In this document: one piece after another, positions 42,830-47,244 of the stretch
Position numbering within the stretch: the first letter of the stretch is position 1
How the letters are laid out: every line of letters starts with the position of its first letter
Source of the DNA: Candidatus Micrarchaeia archaeon
GTDB lineage: Archaea; Micrarchaeota; Micrarchaeia; Anstonellales; VGKX01
Direction of reading: 5' to 3'
Length of the DNA stretch: 64,000 nt
Assembly: GCA_041650395.1 (NCBI GenBank)
Contig: JBAZLG010000003.1
Span: 182,917 to 246,916 of the forward strand
The notes under the pieces: model-generated
What the model saw: the letters and a program-made list of their open reading frames with translations, nothing else
The model's database searches: none
What the model was told of the DNA's origin: nothing
Program-made: the position numbers and the translations under genes

Positions 42830-43867
42830 GTGGGTGTCTCGCTCTCCGACTTGGTGAATCCCAGGCAGACCTCGTTCTCCGAGTTTTCAGGCAAAGTTGT
42901 CGCGATAGACGCGTACAACACGCTCTACCAGTTCCTCACCTCCATCAGGCAGCCCGACGGGACTCCGCTCTCCGACACCAATGGAAACCCGACGGGGCAT
43001 CTCACGGGGCTATTTTACAGGACAGTGAAGCTTCTCGAAGCCGGCGTCAAGCCGGTGTTCGTATTTGACGGCGTGCCCCCGGAATTCAAGCGCGCAACCC
43101 TTGACAAGAGGCACGAGATTAAAGTTGCCGCGCATGAGAGCATGGAAGCGGCGCTGAAGGCGGGGGATTTCGACGCTGCGAAGAAGTTCTCCGCGCGCAC
43201 TGTCAGGCTCACAAAGCCTATGGCCGCCGAGGCCCGCGAGCTTTTGGGATTCATGGGCGTGCCTTCAGTGCAGGCGCCAAGCGAGGGCGAGGCGTGCGCG
43301 TCCGTCATGGTGCGCGAGGGCATCGCATACGCCGTGGCATCGCAGGACTATGACGCGCTGATGTTCGGCGCGCCACGGCTTATCAGGAACCTTTCTGTTT
43401 CAGGGAAGCGCAAGATGCCAGGCAGGCATGAATGGGTCGAGACAAGCCCCGAACTCCTGGAACTTCCCGAAGTCCTGAAACAATTGGGCCTTACGCAAAA
43501 GCAATTGATTTGGATTGGCATACTCATTGGGAACGACTTCAACTCCGGGATAAAGGGGATTGGCCCGAAAAAGGCATTGAAAATCGTGAAGGAGTGCAAG
43601 TCCCTTGAGGACATTGTGAATTACGCGCGGGTTGAATTGGAATACGAGTTCCCAGAGGACGTCTTCGGGATTGAAAGGTTTTTTTTGGACCCGCCTGCTG
43701 TGCATGACGAGTTCCTGGATTTTGGCAAGATAGACAAGCAGGCGGTGGTGGAATTTCTTTGCAGGAAGCACGACTTCTCGGAAGAGCGCGTGTCGCGCAC
43801 CCTCGACTCGCTTGTGAAAAACGTCACTGAAAAAAAGGCGCAGAAGGGACTTGGAGAATGGTTTTAG
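42830..43867 (+). CDS. fen: Flap endonuclease FEN-1
   Basis: MGVSLSDLV N-terminus, VVAIDAYNTLYQFL, VFVFDGVPPEFK, and an H3TH region. GTG start. Confidence 0.9.
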   Translation: MGVSLSDLVNPRQTSFSEFSGKVVAIDAYNTLYQFLTSIRQPDGTPLSDTNGNPTGHLTGLFYRTVKLLEAGVKPVFVFDGVPPEFKRATLDKRHEIKVAAHESMEAALKAGDFDAAKKFSARTVRLTKPMAAEARELLGFMGVPSVQAPSEGEACASVMVREGIAYAVASQDYDALMFGAPRLIRNLSVSGKRKMPGRHEWVETSPELLELPEVLKQLGLTQKQLIWIGILIGNDFNSGIKGIGPKKALKIVKECKSLEDIVNYARVELEYEFPEDVFGIERFFLDPPAVHDEFLDFGKIDKQAVVEFLCRKHDFSEERVSRTLDSLVKNVTEKKAQKGLGEWF

Positions 43868-43879
43868 AAGAGGAATAAA

Positions 43880-44692
43880 ATGAATATTGTCAAAGAATAT
43901 TTAATATTGGCTATTGGAGATCTCAAAGCAGCAGAAATACTTCAGAAAAATAAGCTTTACCCCTATGCAATATATTTTACCATTCAAGCATTGGAAAAAG
44001 TAACAAAAGCTCAATTAATCTTGAATAACACGATACCACCAGAACAGCTAAAAAAGAAAATAGGGCATAACCTTTTTTTAGGATTTGCCCGATATTGGCG
44101 CCAAAATAAAACCATGTGGGATGCTCATAAAATAATGATGTCAAACCCTAAATTTAAAATAATGTTTAACGATTCAGAAAGCCACATAAAAAATGAAAAA
44201 GAAATTGCAGCAAACATAAAGGCGATAGAATCACACATAAAAAAATTGGAGATAACTGCACTGGACAAAAATAGAAAACAAGAAGAAGCTGAAAAAACCA
44301 TAGAAAGATTAGATAAATACTATAGTAAAACAGGAGAAGAATACGAAAAACAAAGAAAACAAGTAGAAAATATTTGTTCTGAACTTAATGAAAAGATTAT
44401 GACAACTGAGAACGAAGAGCAAAGAAAAAAACTAGAAGAAAACATTAGAATTATTAAAAATGCAAAAGGCTATCTCACAGGAATCATTAGTTCAGATTAT
44501 ATTTTGAAAGTAATACAAGAATTAGCAGAGATAATGCCTAATCAAGATGAGTTAAGATATCCTGAAAGCAACCCATTAGACAAATTTAATGAAAACCATC
44601 CATTAGTAAAGAATTTGGAAGGAGTAAATAGACATCTAAAAAACAGTATAGAATTCACGCTTAGATTAGATCTTAGCAGTTGGGACAACTAA
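43880..44692 (+). CDS. HEPN-domain protein with a C-terminal K/E-rich coiled-coil extension. First gene of low-GC island 2.
   Basis: LILAIGDLKAAEILQKNKLYPYAIYFTIQALEKVTKAQLIL...KIGHNLF aligns with the canonical HEPN helix pattern (L..A..DL.AA..LL....Y..AvfhaqQAvEKalKAlL...tHdL). About 30% GC. Confidence 0.65.
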   Translation: MNIVKEYLILAIGDLKAAEILQKNKLYPYAIYFTIQALEKVTKAQLILNNTIPPEQLKKKIGHNLFLGFARYWRQNKTMWDAHKIMMSNPKFKIMFNDSESHIKNEKEIAANIKAIESHIKKLEITALDKNRKQEEAEKTIERLDKYYSKTGEEYEKQRKQVENICSELNEKIMTTENEEQRKKLEENIRIIKNAKGYLTGIISSDYILKVIQELAEIMPNQDELRYPESNPLDKFNENHPLVKNLEGVNRHLKNSIEFTLRLDLSSWDN

Positions 44693-44697
44693 ACATC

Positions 44698-45288
44698 CTA
44701 GCTGGTTTTTTTAGAAATTTCATCAAAGATTTGGTCGGCTCCCCACGCTTGAGCTGCCGCCCATGCCATCTTACGTTTCTTTTCACGAGTTAAAGCGGCA
44801 GCAGGTTTGTAACCAAGATCGTGATTAGCCTCAGCCCATGCATATTGGAAAAGAGTGCAAATTTGAATTTCAAAAAAATCGATAGGAAGAGAATATTTTT
44901 CGACCATAGCTCGCGGAATTAGACAAATTATTTTTTTCCCTTCATAACCAAAAGAAGTTGGATCCTCTGGCTCAGCAAATCTGTCTTCTACAATTGCAAA
45001 TAATTTTAATATTTTAGTTGTTGCTGGAGTAATATTTGAACGATATTTAACAACAATACGAATACCTATTTGGTCTTGTATTTCAGATACTGGTGAATTA
45101 TATTTAAAGGTACCATCCTTATTCATTGTTTTTGACTTCTTAGAAAAACTATGGATAGACTTAACACGATACTTAACCTGGTCAACATATTCAGACTTCA
45201 AAAAGGAAGCTTGTAGTTGATTAAATAAATCTTTAGCTGGTCTTTCTAATTTTGGGAATAATGATTTATACTGAATTTCTTTTACCAT
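44698..45288 (-). CDS. RelA/SpoT-homolog (RSH) synthetase-fold nucleotidyltransferase, small alarmone synthetase-like (toxSAS-like)
   Basis: YRVKSIHSFSKKSK matches the RxKxxxSxxxK motif. IGIRIVVKY matches the G-x-R-I-V motif. FFEIQICTLFQYAWAEANHDLGYKP matches EIQIRT..QH.WAE..H...YK. About 30% GC. The start overlaps the upstream gene's stop by 1 nt. Confidence 0.75.
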   Translation of the reverse strand: MVKEIQYKSLFPKLERPAKDLFNQLQASFLKSEYVDQVKYRVKSIHSFSKKSKTMNKDGTFKYNSPVSEIQDQIGIRIVVKYRSNITPATTKILKLFAIVEDRFAEPEDPTSFGYEGKKIICLIPRAMVEKYSLPIDFFEIQICTLFQYAWAEANHDLGYKPAAALTREKKRKMAWAAAQAWGADQIFDEISKKTS

Positions 45289-46346
45289 TATTCCAACCTT
45301 TTCCGTCTAGACGTTGATAGCTTAGTCGAACTTACTTTTCCAGTTAATGTAAACTGGGTTTTGCCATTCTGGAGCTTCTCACGCTTAACTCTCTGGTCAA
45401 AACTATTAACAGGGCCACTTATTGTAAAAGCATTATCTATTTCAACAGATTTGAGATTTATAGTTCGTAATAGCTGAGAAGTATCAATAACAAATGGATC
45501 ACTGTGGTATGCAGACGGAATCTTTTTTAAGAACATAGGGCGGGCAGATGCTGGAAGATAATCATTAGCGATTTGAGGAAAGGTTAAACTCTTATTTTTT
45601 TGACTAAGTAATGTTGTCGCAGCAGCAACAATTATTTGTTTGTCACCAATATTTTTAGATGAAGAAATTGCCGAAGTGAGAGCTTTCGATAACAAACTCG
45701 TGCCATATGAAGATTTGAGCGTAGGCATCGACAGTAGAAAGTCGTCTATCCAATAATTAGAAACACCTTTTAATTGCTGCTTGGCTTGCTTATCTTCAAC
45801 ATAGCCCTTCCAAAAGCTTCTTCTGGAAGAAATATCCCCATCATAAGTTGCAGCTTTAAAAAATGCAGATTCCTGAGAAAATGCATCACTTAAAACATTA
45901 ATTATGACATTTGTGCTAGCCGAATCCTTTTTGAAAGAAAGTACAGCTCCATGGGGAAATGTGAGCAACACTAAACGATTACCAGATGGAGAAGTCCCAA
46001 CTAAAATAATAAGTAATACAGTATTAGAACGTTTATCCATTGATTGAGATAAACGAACAGCCAACTGTTCAGAATTAGTTTGAAAATTCGCTTGATCTTG
46101 AATAATAAGATGAATCATATCTCTGACTTTATTTGTTTGTATATTATTTTCAGGGATAAAAGAAATTTCAATCGGAAATAAAGATGTTTTGAGATAAAAT
46201 GGTTTCAAAAAAGTTAGTAAGTCGGGAGATAAATTTGCGATAGACCCATTAACACAAGCAGAGAGAGATTTACCAGTAAGATGTTTGCCTGGCTTAACTA
46301 CATAAGCAGCACAGTGCTGTATATGCGATATACTTAGAGATGACAT
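45288..46346 (-). CDS. Hypothetical 352-aa protein, first gene of the RSH operon (candidate antitoxin, sensor or partner)
   Basis: Intact low-GC ORF with no TM and no recognised motif. A TATA-like aaatatataaaaat lies 40-60 nt upstream on the minus strand. Confidence 0.55.
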   Translation of the reverse strand: MSSLSISHIQHCAAYVVKPGKHLTGKSLSACVNGSIANLSPDLLTFLKPFYLKTSLFPIEISFIPENNIQTNKVRDMIHLIIQDQANFQTNSEQLAVRLSQSMDKRSNTVLLIILVGTSPSGNRLVLLTFPHGAVLSFKKDSASTNVIINVLSDAFSQESAFFKAATYDGDISSRRSFWKGYVEDKQAKQQLKGVSNYWIDDFLLSMPTLKSSYGTSLLSKALTSAISSSKNIGDKQIIVAAATTLLSQKNKSLTFPQIANDYLPASARPMFLKKIPSAYHSDPFVIDTSQLLRTINLKSVEIDNAFTISGPVNSFDQRVKREKLQNGKTQFTLTGKVSSTKLSTSRRKRLE

Positions 46347-46428
46347 TCTATCGTCACAGAAAACTTATGACTTCTAAGGTTATAAATGCGTGCATTTGAA
46401 TATAATTTTTATATATTTAAGTTTCTCT

Positions 46429-47244
46429 CTACCACCCGTAAATCTTCCTGATTGAGGCTTCAAGAAGCACGCAGATTACCTCGCCTTCGTCCTCTGAAAT
46501 GGGAACGACTATTGACTGGACAGAGCCGTTAGTGCCCTGCTCCGACGCCTTCAAGGTGTAGCCGAATGAAATGCCCTTAGAGAATTCAAGCACTGTGTTT
46601 CTCGTGTCCTTCGCGGATTCGTATTGCCCCTTGGACGGGTCGTGGTATAATTTCGAATTCTTGAGCGAGCCTGTGAGCACGGCAAGCATCTTGCCGATGT
46701 CAGTGATTGAGAGTTTCATTGTTATCTTGTTGTCCCAGTCGAATTTCTGCTCGCCTATTTGCTTTGATATGTCTATGAATATGCTCTGTTTCTCCGCGTT
46801 CAGGTCAAGCGACATCGCGCTTCCCGAATTCGCCTTTGTGGCCTTGTAGAGCCTGAATGGGATTCCCCTCCTCTCATAAGAGGTGCCAGAAGTCGAAGAG
46901 CCTGAACCCGCATAGGAATTTTTCCATGAGGATTGCGGATACTTGGGCTGGGCCTGCTGGCCTTGCGGATACCTCGGAGTAGATTCATAGGACGGCTTTG
47001 AAGGCGAGGCCGCCTGGGCTTGGCTTTTCCATGAAGGCTGGGCTGAAGATGGATTGGCAGGCTGGATGGGCGGCTTGATTTCCTGCTTTTGCGCAGGCTC
47101 CGGGGGCTTTGGCTCCTGTGAAACTGGCTTTTTCTCATCCTGCGCCGGCGCCTGGCTTGCCGGCTGTTGCGACTGGCTGAAACTTGATAGAGAGGGGTAA
47201 ATCTTTTTCTTGTTATCCTGCAATGCAGAGTTGATGTCCGCCAT
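46429..47244 (-). CDS. Hypothetical protein with a Pro/Gln-rich disordered N-terminus and a C-terminal globular domain of about 150 aa
   Basis: Intact ORF. A TATA-like ttatatat lies about 30 nt upstream. Function unknown. Confidence 0.5.
   Translation of the reverse strand: MADINSALQDNKKKIYPSLSSFSQSQQPASQAPAQDEKKPVSQEPKPPEPAQKQEIKPPIQPANPSSAQPSWKSQAQAASPSKPSYESTPRYPQGQQAQPKYPQSSWKNSYAGSGSSTSGTSYERRGIPFRLYKATKANSGSAMSLDLNAEKQSIFIDISKQIGEQKFDWDNKITMKLSITDIGKMLAVLTGSLKNSKLYHDPSKGQYESAKDTRNTVLEFSKGISFGYTLKASEQGTNGSVQSIVVPISEDEGEVICVLLEASIRKIYGW

What the first reader, a model, noticed from the sequence alone, without database searches (positions are those of the whole stretch)
44698..46346. Translationally coupled gene pair: unknown 352-aa protein followed by an RSH-fold NTase with a 1-nt stop/start overlap
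The stop of the upstream gene and the ATG of the RSH gene share one nucleotide (TAATG arrangement at 45288). Strict stoichiometric coupling of this kind is typical of toxin-antitoxin pairs. The upstream protein has no TM, no Walker motif and no recognisable fold from sequence alone. It is also three times larger than typical toxSAS antitoxins, so it might add a sensor function, by analogy with CapRel's fused C-terminal sensor.
Basis: inference. Interest (0 to 1): 0.7.

Follow-up and report, generated by a model that had tools for sequence, protein, structure and literature searches.

The report
YejK-like clamp paired with alarmone synthetase
The "unknown" 352-aa protein is a very divergent relative of the bacterial DNA-clamping nucleoid protein YejK, and with the small RelA/SpoT-type enzyme that follows it forms a mobile two-gene module, here in an archaeon, that resembles the recently described PANGU anti-virus system but lacks the domain that links PANGU's two proteins.

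Summary
Two minus-strand genes, 46346..45288 (352 aa) and 45288..44698 (196 aa, RelA_SpoT), share one base (TAATG). They lie in a 2.6-kb low-GC island of a Candidatus Micrarchaeia genome.

The pairing is not chance. In 82 of 83 related loci from many bacterial phyla and three archaeal MAGs, a homologue of the 352-aa protein lies directly upstream of the same ~200-aa RSH. The overlap is 4 nt in 49 loci and 1 nt in 4.

The closest known system is type I PANGU (bioRxiv, April 2026). There a YejK-like protein leaves the virus-degraded chromosome and activates the toxSAS Pag1B by binding its C-terminal DMK domain. It acts as an activator, not an antitoxin.

This RSH is a bare synthetase domain without DMK and is closest in fold to RelQ. 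I read the pair as a DMK-less, Pfam-invisible variant of a PANGU-like defence module. Fold, pairing and catalytic residues are shown. DNA binding, the direction of control, the product and defence itself are inferred. The toxin-antitoxin reading remains a live rival.

The parts
45288..46346 (-). Gene A: 352-aa divergent YejK/NA37-fold protein, the putative DNA-clamp sensor and regulator (Pag1A-like)
44698..45288 (-). Gene B: 196-aa single-domain RelA/SpoT-homologue synthetase (SAS/toxSAS-like), with no C-terminal DMK domain
   Evidence: Pfam RelA_SpoT, E 1.2e-12. R41, K43, K51, Q73, G75, Y115, E140 and Q142 are invariant in the 55-sequence family alignment, and D72 and R77 are present in 54 of 55. 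The AF2 model has pLDDT 88.2, and its best PDB matches are B. subtilis SAS1/RelQ at TM 0.74-0.78. It aligns only to residues 48-211 of a 330-aa Pag1B-like RSH.
45286..45290 (-). TAATG stop/start junction: the stop of gene A and the start of gene B share base 45288
   Evidence: The sequence is. Overlapping junctions are the family norm: 49 loci with -4 and 4 loci with -1, out of 83.
46347..46428 (-). AT-rich intergenic region upstream of gene A; likely promoter region (inferred, not tested)
   Evidence: The sequence is. The region contains TTTATAA and AATATATAAAAA on the minus strand. No experimental or comparative test was done.
43800..46400 (.). Low-GC island (about 0.29-0.39 GC, flanks 0.50-0.61) holding genes A and B and the HEPN-like gene, inserted between FEN-1-like and Whirly-domain genes
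   Evidence: Composition profile and ORFs. No flanking repeats and no adjacent tRNA.
43880..44692 (+). Island neighbour: 270-aa HEPN/AbiV-like protein with a coiled coil, convergent with gene B. It is not part of the conserved module.
   Evidence: Pfam HEPN 1.9e-4 and AbiV 2.7e-3. No homologue in any related locus.

Best explanation
This is a horizontally acquired two-gene module related to type I PANGU anti-virus defence.

Gene A encodes a very divergent member of the YejK/NA37 DNA-clamp fold. Gene B encodes a catalytically competent single-domain small alarmone synthetase. The two are made from one transcript in a coupled ratio.

By analogy with Pag1A-Pag1B, I infer the following steps:
1. 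A dimers sit on chromosomal DNA.
2. When a virus degrades or remodels the chromosome, A is freed.
3. Free A binds the RSH and switches it on.
4. The RSH pyrophosphorylates purine nucleotides, giving (pp)pGpp or (pp)pApp, and drains ATP/GTP. This stops growth of the infected cell.

Because the RSH has no DMK domain, A must contact the synthetase domain itself or its conserved N- and C-terminal helices. The coupling mechanism therefore differs from published PANGU.

Shown: fold and homology of A, the obligate pairing and overlap, co-divergence, conserved catalytic residues, the missing DMK domain, and the mobile-island context.

Inferred: DNA binding by A, activation rather than inhibition, the product, and defence function.
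For: Fold and homology of A:
- Foldseek E 3.5e-7, the only significant PDB match.
- YejK is a fold described as novel and unique (PMC11229321).
- hhalign to a Klebsiella-plasmid NA37 protein gives 96.9%, with YK[AS]A, D-x-Q and DFL motifs shared.
- A and that NA37 protein both hit phrog_1974.
- 4 of 107 family members weakly hit Pfam NA37.

Pairing:
- 82 of 83 loci have A directly upstream of the RSH, and 53 have a 4-nt or 1-nt stop/start overlap.
- 3 of 3 loci sampled from the A side have the RSH downstream.
- Mirror-tree r = 0.81, Mantel p = 0.001.

RSH:
- The R-x-K-x7-K motif, G-loop Tyr and catalytic Glu are invariant, and the Mg-Asp is present in 54 of 55 members.
- The closest fold is RelQ/SAS1, a (pp)pGpp synthetase.

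Precedent:
- The canonical architecture (SLATT + NA37 + 330-aa RSH with a 4-nt overlap) was found in L086.
- The PANGU preprint shows that the NAP activates the toxSAS, that the system is not a toxin-antitoxin pair, and that release follows genome degradation.

Mobility and defence context:
- Low-GC island.
- Conjugative Rhizobium and Agrobacterium plasmids.
- Neighbours include RM, MADS, Mrr, DndB, TIR, AbiJ, a Gabija-like pair, integrases and transposases.
- An intact orphan RSH without A exists (L015). That is easier to reconcile with an RSH that is inactive on its own.
Against: - The RSH lacks the DMK domain. In PANGU this domain is the Pag1A-binding element, is required for activation, and is called a conserved architectural principle. 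The isolated toxSYNTH domain of Pag1B was inactive.
- A is not detected by the NA37 Pfam model, so conservation of DNA binding and dimerisation is unproven.
- There is no acidic, DNA-mimic-like charge signature. Family median pI is 6.7 for A and 5.6 for the RSH, and both window proteins are basic (9.7 and 9.3).
- The immediate neighbours are heterogeneous and include housekeeping genes, and no control for defence enrichment was run.
- The window RSH deviates at 5 of 52 near-invariant columns, including H119K in the G-loop region.
- The host is an archaeon. (p)ppGpp signalling is not established in Archaea (general knowledge), and a YejK-type protein has not been studied on archaeal chromatin.
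- PANGU is so far a preprint.
Confidence: 0.55

Rival explanations
1. Classical type II toxin-antitoxin pair. The short RSH is a constitutively toxic toxSAS, and the YejK-fold protein is its protein antitoxin, neutralising it by direct binding. Loss or sequestration of A releases the toxin.
For: - The pair has a bicistronic, overlapping, regulator-first architecture like toxSAS toxin-antitoxin loci (PMC7229694).
- The RSH lacks the DMK domain through which PANGU-style activation works, so the sign of regulation cannot be transferred from Pag1A-Pag1B.
- The pair sits on plasmids and beside other toxin-antitoxin genes such as HipBA and RHH.
Against: - The closest characterised homologous pair is explicitly not a toxin-antitoxin system, and its NAP activates.
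- A is a large, well-ordered two-domain clamp fold (pLDDT 89), unlike known toxSAS antitoxins, which are SAH, Panacea or small proteins.
- An intact orphan RSH exists without A.
- The RSH is structurally closest to RelQ/RelP, which PMC7229694 validated as non-toxic.
Confidence: 0.22
2. Non-defensive physiological module. A chromosome-bound YejK-like protein couples chromosome or DNA state to alarmone synthesis as a stress-signalling circuit, with no role against viruses.
For: - Many loci are flanked by ordinary metabolic or repair genes such as TPP enzymes, UvrA and ThiC.
- The family is widespread in free-living soil and sediment bacteria.
- The RSH resembles the housekeeping enzymes RelQ and RelP.
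Against: - The distribution is patchy and cuts across phyla and domains, and the genomic context is not conserved.
- The pair occurs on conjugative plasmids.
- In the window it sits in a low-GC island next to a HEPN/AbiV-like gene.
- It occurs in archaea, which lack the stringent-response machinery (general knowledge).
- Related NAP-toxSAS operons protect against phage.
Confidence: 0.13
3. In this particular genome the pair is an inert or decaying relic of horizontal transfer: intact reading frames but impaired function.
For: - The island is strongly foreign in composition, 0.32 GC against 0.55.
- The RSH deviates at 5 of 52 near-invariant columns, including H119K and H149Y, and only 1 of 54 relatives is as deviant. 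A deviates at G110V and R129T.
- The nearest relatives are only 34% (A) and 49% (RSH) identical.
Against: - Both ORFs are full length with the family's start and stop register, and the overlap is preserved.
- All core catalytic residues are retained.
- Both models fold with high confidence.
Confidence: 0.1

Closest known systems
Type I PANGU (Pag1A YejK-like NAP + Pag1B/GRel toxSAS), bioRxiv 10.64898/2026.04.06.716658. An example was found here: K. pneumoniae plasmid NZ_CP092398 (L086).
   Same: - The gene order is the same, with a YejK-fold protein upstream and a RelA/SpoT synthetase downstream, joined by a stop/start overlap.
- A is homologous to the NA37 partner.
- The RSH is homologous to the toxSYNTH part of Pag1B-like proteins, at 98.5% hhalign probability, and shares phrog_9640 and phrog_32462 with them.
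- The G-loop Tyr is conserved.
- The context is mobile and defence-rich.
   Different: - The RSH is 196 aa and stops where Pag1B's linker and acidic DMK domain begin. The Pag1A-binding and activation element is therefore absent.
- A is not detected by PF04245/NA37. It would therefore very probably fail the preprint's screen, which used an IPR007358 HMM at E<1e-10.
- No SLATT gene is present.
- The hosts include Archaea and phyla such as Acidobacteriota, Planctomycetota and Chloroflexota, whereas the preprint reports mainly Bacillota and Pseudomonadota.
- The 'QIRT' arginine is replaced in this family by S, K, C or A.
E. coli YejK / NdpA (Pfam NA37, PDB 9be2)
   Same: Both have the two-domain fold of about 335-350 aa. 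YejK is the only significant structural match in the PDB. YK[AS]A, D-x-Q and DFL motifs are shared with an NA37 protein.
   Different: Sequence identity is about 10%. TM is only 0.42-0.44 over the full length, which probably reflects a different domain orientation. The protein is below the Pfam threshold. It is always operon-linked to an RSH, whereas YejK is a stand-alone housekeeping NAP. DNA binding and dimerisation were not tested.
toxSAS toxin-antitoxin systems (FaRel, FaRel2, PhRel, PhRel2; fused CapRel), PMC7229694 and PMC9712102
   Same: Both have an RSH synthetase-domain effector in a compact, often overlapping operon on mobile elements. The partner or fused domain acts as regulator or sensor.
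   Different: The partner is a YejK-fold protein, not an SAH, a Panacea domain or a small antitoxin. The RSH is closer in sequence and fold to RelQ/RelP (profile E 8.5e-18, TM 0.74-0.78) than to CapRel (E 1e-4, TM 0.63-0.65). Toxicity and neutralisation are untested.
Housekeeping small alarmone synthetases RelQ/SAS1 and RelP/SAS2
   Same: They have the same single-domain architecture and length, with long N- and C-terminal helices, and they give the best structural matches. The catalytic residues are the same.
   Different: Identity is only about 20-22%. The NCBIfam GTPPhKinYjbM score is 37 bits against a cutoff of 320. The RSH is obligately paired with gene A. Its C-terminal motif A-A-A-Q-A-W-G-A-D-x-I-F is strongly conserved and specific to this family.

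Membership tests
YejK/NA37 (PF04245) superfamily | Match to Pfam PF04245 above the gathering score | tested here: not met
   The window protein has no NA37 hit at E<=1. Only 4 of 107 family members hit it, with a best E of 5.6e-5.
YejK/NA37 (PF04245) superfamily | The two-domain YejK fold | tested here: met
YejK/NA37 (PF04245) superfamily | Sequence-profile homology to a bona fide NA37 protein | tested here: met
   hhalign of the family profile against L086 NA37 (itself PF04245, 9.9e-18) gives probability 96.9% and E 1.5e-10 over 235 columns. Both hit phrog_1974.
YejK/NA37 (PF04245) superfamily | Dimeric clamp with an electropositive pore that binds DNA without sequence specificity | not testable with these tools
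   No multimer prediction, coordinates or electrostatics were available. Conserved basic positions exist: R75, R98, R106, R/K129 (T in the window), K164 and K/R186.
Type I PANGU (Pag1A-Pag1B) | Bicistronic operon with the NAP gene immediately upstream of a toxSAS gene (intergenic distance under 40 bp) | tested here: met
   The window pair has a 1-nt overlap, and 82 of 83 related loci are paired.
Type I PANGU (Pag1A-Pag1B) | Effector architecture of toxSYNTH + helical linker + acidic C-terminal DMK domain bound by the NAP dimer | tested here: not met
   The window RSH is 196 aa and family members are 190-221 aa. It aligns to residues 48-211 of the 330-aa L086 RSH and to positions 42-201 of the 330-position phrog_32462. 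The model is a single domain.
Type I PANGU (Pag1A-Pag1B) | NAP detectable by the IPR007358-derived HMM at E<1e-10, length >=300 aa (the preprint's screen) | tested here: not met
   The proxy was Pfam PF04245: no hit for the window protein and a best family E of 5.6e-5. The length criterion is met. The preprint's own HMM was not available.
Type I PANGU (Pag1A-Pag1B) | RSH belongs to the GRel subfamily | not testable with these tools
   The subfamily HMMs of Atkinson and Hauryliuk are not available here. Identity to a Pag1B-like toxSYNTH domain is about 31%.
Type I PANGU (Pag1A-Pag1B) | Catalytic G-loop tyrosine and synthetase active site | tested here: met
   Y115, R41, K43, K51 and E140 are invariant and D72 is present in 54 of 55. 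The window has K in place of the near-invariant H119.
Type I PANGU (Pag1A-Pag1B) | Both genes are required for phage defence, neither is toxic alone, and the NAP activates pppGpp synthesis | not testable with these tools
   This needs experiments.
toxSAS type II toxin-antitoxin systems | Partner carries a known antitoxin module (SAH hydrolase, Panacea/DUF4065 or a small neutralising protein) | tested here: not met
   No such Pfam, NCBIfam or PADLOC domain was found. The fold is YejK.
toxSAS type II toxin-antitoxin systems | RSH is toxic alone and neutralised by the partner | not testable with these tools
   This needs experiments. One intact orphan RSH (L015) argues weakly against it.
RelQ/YjbM-type SAS (NCBIfam NF053588) | Score above the equivalog cutoff | tested here: not met
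   37.1 bits against a cutoff of 320. The fold is nevertheless closest to SAS1/RelQ.

The most novel reading that the evidence does not exclude
A second, DMK-independent way of wiring a YejK-type DNA clamp to an alarmone synthetase. It is invisible to current NA37 and defence HMMs and spread across many bacterial phyla and into Archaea. In a DPANN archaeon a bacterial-type nucleoid sensor would then read the integrity of archaeal chromatin and fire a (pp)pNpp-making or NTP-draining enzyme as an abortive-infection effector. That would be the first alarmone-synthetase immune effector described in Archaea.
Probability: 0.3. Interest if true: 0.75.

Novelty: new variant of a known kind. Interest (0 to 1): 0.55.

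Why it matters
If it is functional, this family has four consequences.

- It shows that the nucleoid-protein-plus-toxSAS defence design is much broader than the April 2026 description. The family has at least 649 clusters at 50% identity that standard NA37 models miss.
- It breaks the proposed rule that the nucleoid protein recognises its effector through a DNA-mimicking domain, so a different activation or inhibition interface must exist.
- It places a RelA/SpoT-type effector and a YejK-type clamp in Archaea, including a reduced-genome DPANN symbiont where (p)ppGpp biology is essentially unexplored.
- It gives annotators a name for a large "hypothetical protein" family.

Tried and rejected
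- **Sequence libraries for gene A.** Pfam, NCBIfam, PADLOC and PDB-sequence searches of the 352-aa protein or its profiles gave nothing significant.
- **Word-indexed homologue search.** It found only one relative. The exhaustive HMM search was needed to reveal the family.
- **Locus search with the A-family alignment.** The search for related loci failed because no stretch was conserved enough, so loci were fetched through the RSH instead.
- **afdb50 fold library.** It was unavailable.
- **Third conserved gene.** None was found among 140 nearest neighbours. The HEPN-like neighbour in the window recurs nowhere, so I rejected it as part of the module.
- **Island borders.** There are no convincing flanking direct repeats and no adjacent tRNA.
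- **Phage genomes.** The 352-aa protein has no tblastn match in 50,697 phage records.
- **Charge test for a hidden DNA-mimic.** pI values show no consistent acidic-RSH and basic-A pattern.
Neither domain searches nor fold searches support them.
- **Other distant RSH relatives on plasmids.** The Bacteroides, Cetobacterium, Paracoccus and Ralstonia relatives are longer stand-alone or fused proteins without a NAP partner. They do not bridge the two architectures.
- **Complex prediction.** A prediction of the A-RSH complex could not be run with the tools offered.
Full report
**1. The observation**

On the minus strand, a 352-aa ORF runs 46346..45288 and a 196-aa ORF runs 45288..44698. The junction reads ...GGAATAATGGTA... 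on the minus strand. The TAA stop (45290-45288) and the ATG (45288-45286) share base 45288.

The downstream protein carries a RelA_SpoT domain (PF04607, E 1.2e-12). The upstream protein has no significant Pfam, NCBIfam or PADLOC hit.

Both genes, plus a convergent 270-aa HEPN/AbiV-like gene (43880..44692), lie in a 2.6-kb island of about 0.29-0.39 GC. The neighbouring genes are at 0.50-0.61 GC. On one side is a FEN-1-like gene, identified by eye from its translation. On the other is a Whirly-domain gene.

An identical protein is recorded from a Candidatus Micrarchaeia MAG. No flanking repeats or tRNA mark the island borders.

**2. Is the pairing more than chance?**

The word-indexed search found only one relative of the 352-aa protein, at 30% identity. 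Its contig carries the same pair with the same 1-nt overlap.

An exhaustive HMM search then found 649 cluster representatives at E<=1e-3 and 226 at E<=1e-30. Nearly all are 330-345 aa.

The RSH has more than 1,280 relatives of 190-221 aa. I fetched 80 genomic loci through the RSH and called ORFs and family HMM hits in them.
- 82 of 83 loci have a homologue of the 352-aa protein directly upstream on the same strand.
- 49 of those loci have an ATGA/GTGA 4-nt overlap.
- 4 loci, including the window, have a 1-nt overlap.
- Most of the rest lie within about 20 nt.

Three loci fetched from the other side, through A-family proteins, all have a 202-209-aa RelA_SpoT gene directly downstream.

Pairwise identities of the two proteins across 76 loci correlate at r = 0.81 (Mantel p = 0.001). 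Only one locus, L015, has an intact RSH without the partner.

No third gene is conserved. The 140 nearest neighbours are heterogeneous. The HEPN-like gene of the window recurs nowhere.

**3. What the 352-aa protein is**

An AlphaFold2 model built on a 107-sequence family alignment is confident (pLDDT 89.3, pTM 0.80). Four lines of evidence place it with YejK.
- Foldseek against the PDB gives one significant match, E. coli YejK (9be2), at E 3.5e-7 and probability 1.0.
- YejK was described as a new two-domain fold that dimerises into a DNA clamp with an electropositive pore (PMC11229321). An exclusive match to it is therefore specific.
- At sequence level, the family profile aligns to a bona fide NA37 protein from a Klebsiella plasmid at 96.9% probability and E 1.5e-10 over 235 columns. 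That protein itself scores PF04245 at 9.9e-18. The YK[AS]A, D-x-Q and DFL motifs are shared.

Both proteins also hit phrog_1974, at 8.4e-9 and 2.5e-36. Four of 107 family members weakly hit Pfam NA37.

The protein is thus a very divergent member of the YejK/NA37 superfamily, lying below the Pfam threshold.

**4. What the RSH is**

In the 55-sequence family alignment the following are invariant:
- the ATP-binding R41-x-K43-x7-K51 pattern;
- Q73 and G75;
- the G-loop Y115;
- the catalytic E140, together with Q142.

The Mg-binding D72 and R77 are each present in 54 of 55 sequences.

The model (pLDDT 88.2) is a single domain flanked by long N- and C-terminal helices. Its best PDB matches are the (pp)pGpp synthetases SAS1/RelQ (TM 0.74-0.78) and RelP. 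CapRel is more distant at TM 0.63-0.65. The profile search agrees, with E 8.5e-18 for YjbM and 1e-4 for CapRel.

Two features are particular to this family.
- It has a strongly conserved C-terminal helix, AAAQAWGADxIF.
- It has lost the Arg of the usual 'QIRT' motif.

The window copy is an outlier. It deviates at 5 of 52 near-invariant columns, including H119K. H119 aligns with the His of GYRSYH in YjbM. The other notable change is H149Y.

**5. Comparison with what is known**

A full-text search for toxSAS together with YejK found one paper, bioRxiv 10.64898/2026.04.06.716658 of April 2026. It defines PANGU systems. In type I PANGU a YejK-like NAP (Pag1A) is encoded upstream of the GRel toxSAS Pag1B.

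The preprint reports the following:
- Pag1B (37.5 kDa) consists of toxSYNTH, a linker and an acidic C-terminal "DNA-mimicking" DMK domain.
- Alone it is an inactive tetramer.
- A Pag1A dimer binds the DMK domain with a KD of 9.4 nM, giving an active 2:1 complex that converts ATP + GTP to AMP + pppGpp.
- Pag1A is normally chromosome-bound and is released when phage nucleases degrade the genome.
- Neither gene is toxic alone, so the system is not a toxin-antitoxin pair.
- A DNA-binding-dead Pag1A makes the pair toxic.
- The isolated toxSYNTH domain is inactive.

I found a canonical example on K. pneumoniae plasmid NZ_CP092398. It carries a DUF4231/SLATT gene, then an NA37 gene (363 aa), then an RSH gene (330 aa), with a 4-nt overlap.

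The window RSH aligns only to residues 48-211 of that 330-aa protein (98.5% probability). It also aligns only to the N-terminal 42-201 of the full-length Pag1B-like profile phrog_32462. This family therefore lacks DMK.

The preprint's NAP screen used an IPR007358-derived HMM at E<1e-10. On the Pfam proxy this family would not pass.

PADLOC 2.0 has no model for A and gives only a weak PDC-S33 hit for the RSH. A second 2026 paper also reports a YejK domain in a validated E. coli defence system (PMC13092281).

**6. Context**

The family occurs in Acidobacteriota, Alpha-, Beta- and Gammaproteobacteria, Desulfobacterota, Planctomycetota, Chloroflexota, Gemmatimonadota, Bacteroidota and Ignavibacteria. 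It also occurs in MAGs assigned to Bathyarchaeota and Micrarchaeota and on conjugative Rhizobium and Agrobacterium plasmids.

Neighbours include type I RM subunits, methyltransferases, MADS genes, Mrr, DndB, a TIR protein, AbiJ-NTD4, an AAA-ATPase/UvrD pair, HipA, integrases, transposases and phage genes. They also include ordinary metabolic genes. This suggests a mobile defence module, but I ran no controlled enrichment test.

**7. Most likely mechanism**

Identity, with high confidence (about 0.9): the pair is a distant relative of type I PANGU. It joins a YejK-fold protein to a competent single-domain alarmone-synthetase-type enzyme, expressed as a coupled unit and acquired horizontally.

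Mechanism, inferred with moderate confidence: A acts as the DNA-bound sensor, and its release or altered state switches the RSH on. The result is (pp)pNpp synthesis and NTP drain, which arrest the infected cell.

Because DMK is absent, the interface must be different. Candidates are the family-specific C-terminal helix of the RSH or its oligomerisation surface.

The main rival is a true toxin-antitoxin arrangement with A as the antitoxin. The sequence data cannot exclude it. The orphan RSH, the RelQ-like fold and the PANGU precedent argue against it. The missing DMK domain removes the strongest argument by analogy against it.

It is open whether the window's own copy still works. It has an archaeal host, a foreign composition and an H119K substitution.

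**8. Verdict**

The "unknown" protein now has a fold and a family.

The system is a new variant of a kind described only months ago. Three things make it noteworthy: the missing DMK domain, its invisibility to current models, and its presence in Archaea.

Noticed in passing
window 43880-44692 (+): A 270-aa protein with a HEPN/AbiV-like N-terminus (Pfam HEPN 1.9e-4, AbiV 2.7e-3) followed by a long K/E-rich coiled coil. It lies in the same low-GC island, convergent with the RSH and ending 5 nt from the RSH stop. The usual R-x4-6-H position reads KKKIGH. It has no homologue in any related locus, so it is probably an independent cargo gene of the island.
   Followed up: partly
window 46429-47244 (-): A 271-aa protein with a P/Q/S-rich low-complexity N-terminal half and a C-terminal Whirly domain (PF08536, E 8.8e-12). 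It is encoded in host-GC DNA of a Micrarchaeia genome, immediately next to the island.
   Followed up: no
L015 4001-4552 (Anaerolineae MAG JAOSJO010000025): An intact RSH of this family (270 bits) with no A-family gene upstream. The preceding ORF looks like a CBS-domain protein (by eye, not tested). It is the only orphan among 83 loci.
   Followed up: partly
L086 2343-4906 (K. pneumoniae IncFIB plasmid NZ_CP092398): A canonical SLATT(DUF4231) + NA37 + 330-aa RelA/SpoT operon with 4-nt overlap, i.e. a type I PANGU-like system. It is annotated only as 'nucleoid-associated protein' and 'RelA/SpoT domain-containing protein', and lies next to a DEAD/DEAH helicase gene.
   Followed up: partly
L088 2969-12600 (Rhizobium sp. 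Kim5 plasmid pRetKim5a): The A-RSH pair sits beside an adenylosuccinate-synthetase-like gene, DUF6035, an AbiJ-NTD4 protein and an AAA-ATPase + UvrD-helicase pair. This looks like a plasmid defence island.
   Followed up: no
L001 166-411 and L002 158-403: A ribbon-helix-helix (RHH_1) gene lies about 170 nt upstream of the pair in the closest word-search relative. It could be a transcriptional regulator of the operon or half of an unrelated toxin-antitoxin pair.
   Followed up: no
P0155 (440 aa), P0185 (469 aa; L089 4001-5410): Some A-family proteins carry N-terminal extensions of 100-130 aa with no Pfam hit. L089 still has the RSH downstream with a 4-nt overlap.
   Followed up: partly
window 44698-45288 (-), residues 119 and 149; window 45288-46346 (-), residues 110 and 129: The window copies deviate at near-invariant family positions. 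In the RSH these are H119K (aligned with the G-loop His of YjbM), H149Y, R10L, L67V and L141I. In A they are G110V and R129T. Only 1 of 54 RSH relatives is as deviant.
   Followed up: partly
L087 3962-5422 (Ralstonia solanacearum megaplasmid CP047139): A 486-aa protein fuses a RelA_SpoT domain (1.7e-17) to TPR repeats, with no NAP neighbour. This is another RSH architecture that may pair an effector with a fused sensor.
   Followed up: no
L092 2971-4044 (Bacteroides finegoldii plasmid/phage-like element NZ_OY725946): A 357-aa '(p)ppGpp synthetase' sits between terminase/portal genes and an HNH endonuclease. It is a stand-alone long RSH in a phage-like element and one of the nearest relatives outside the family.
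   Followed up: no
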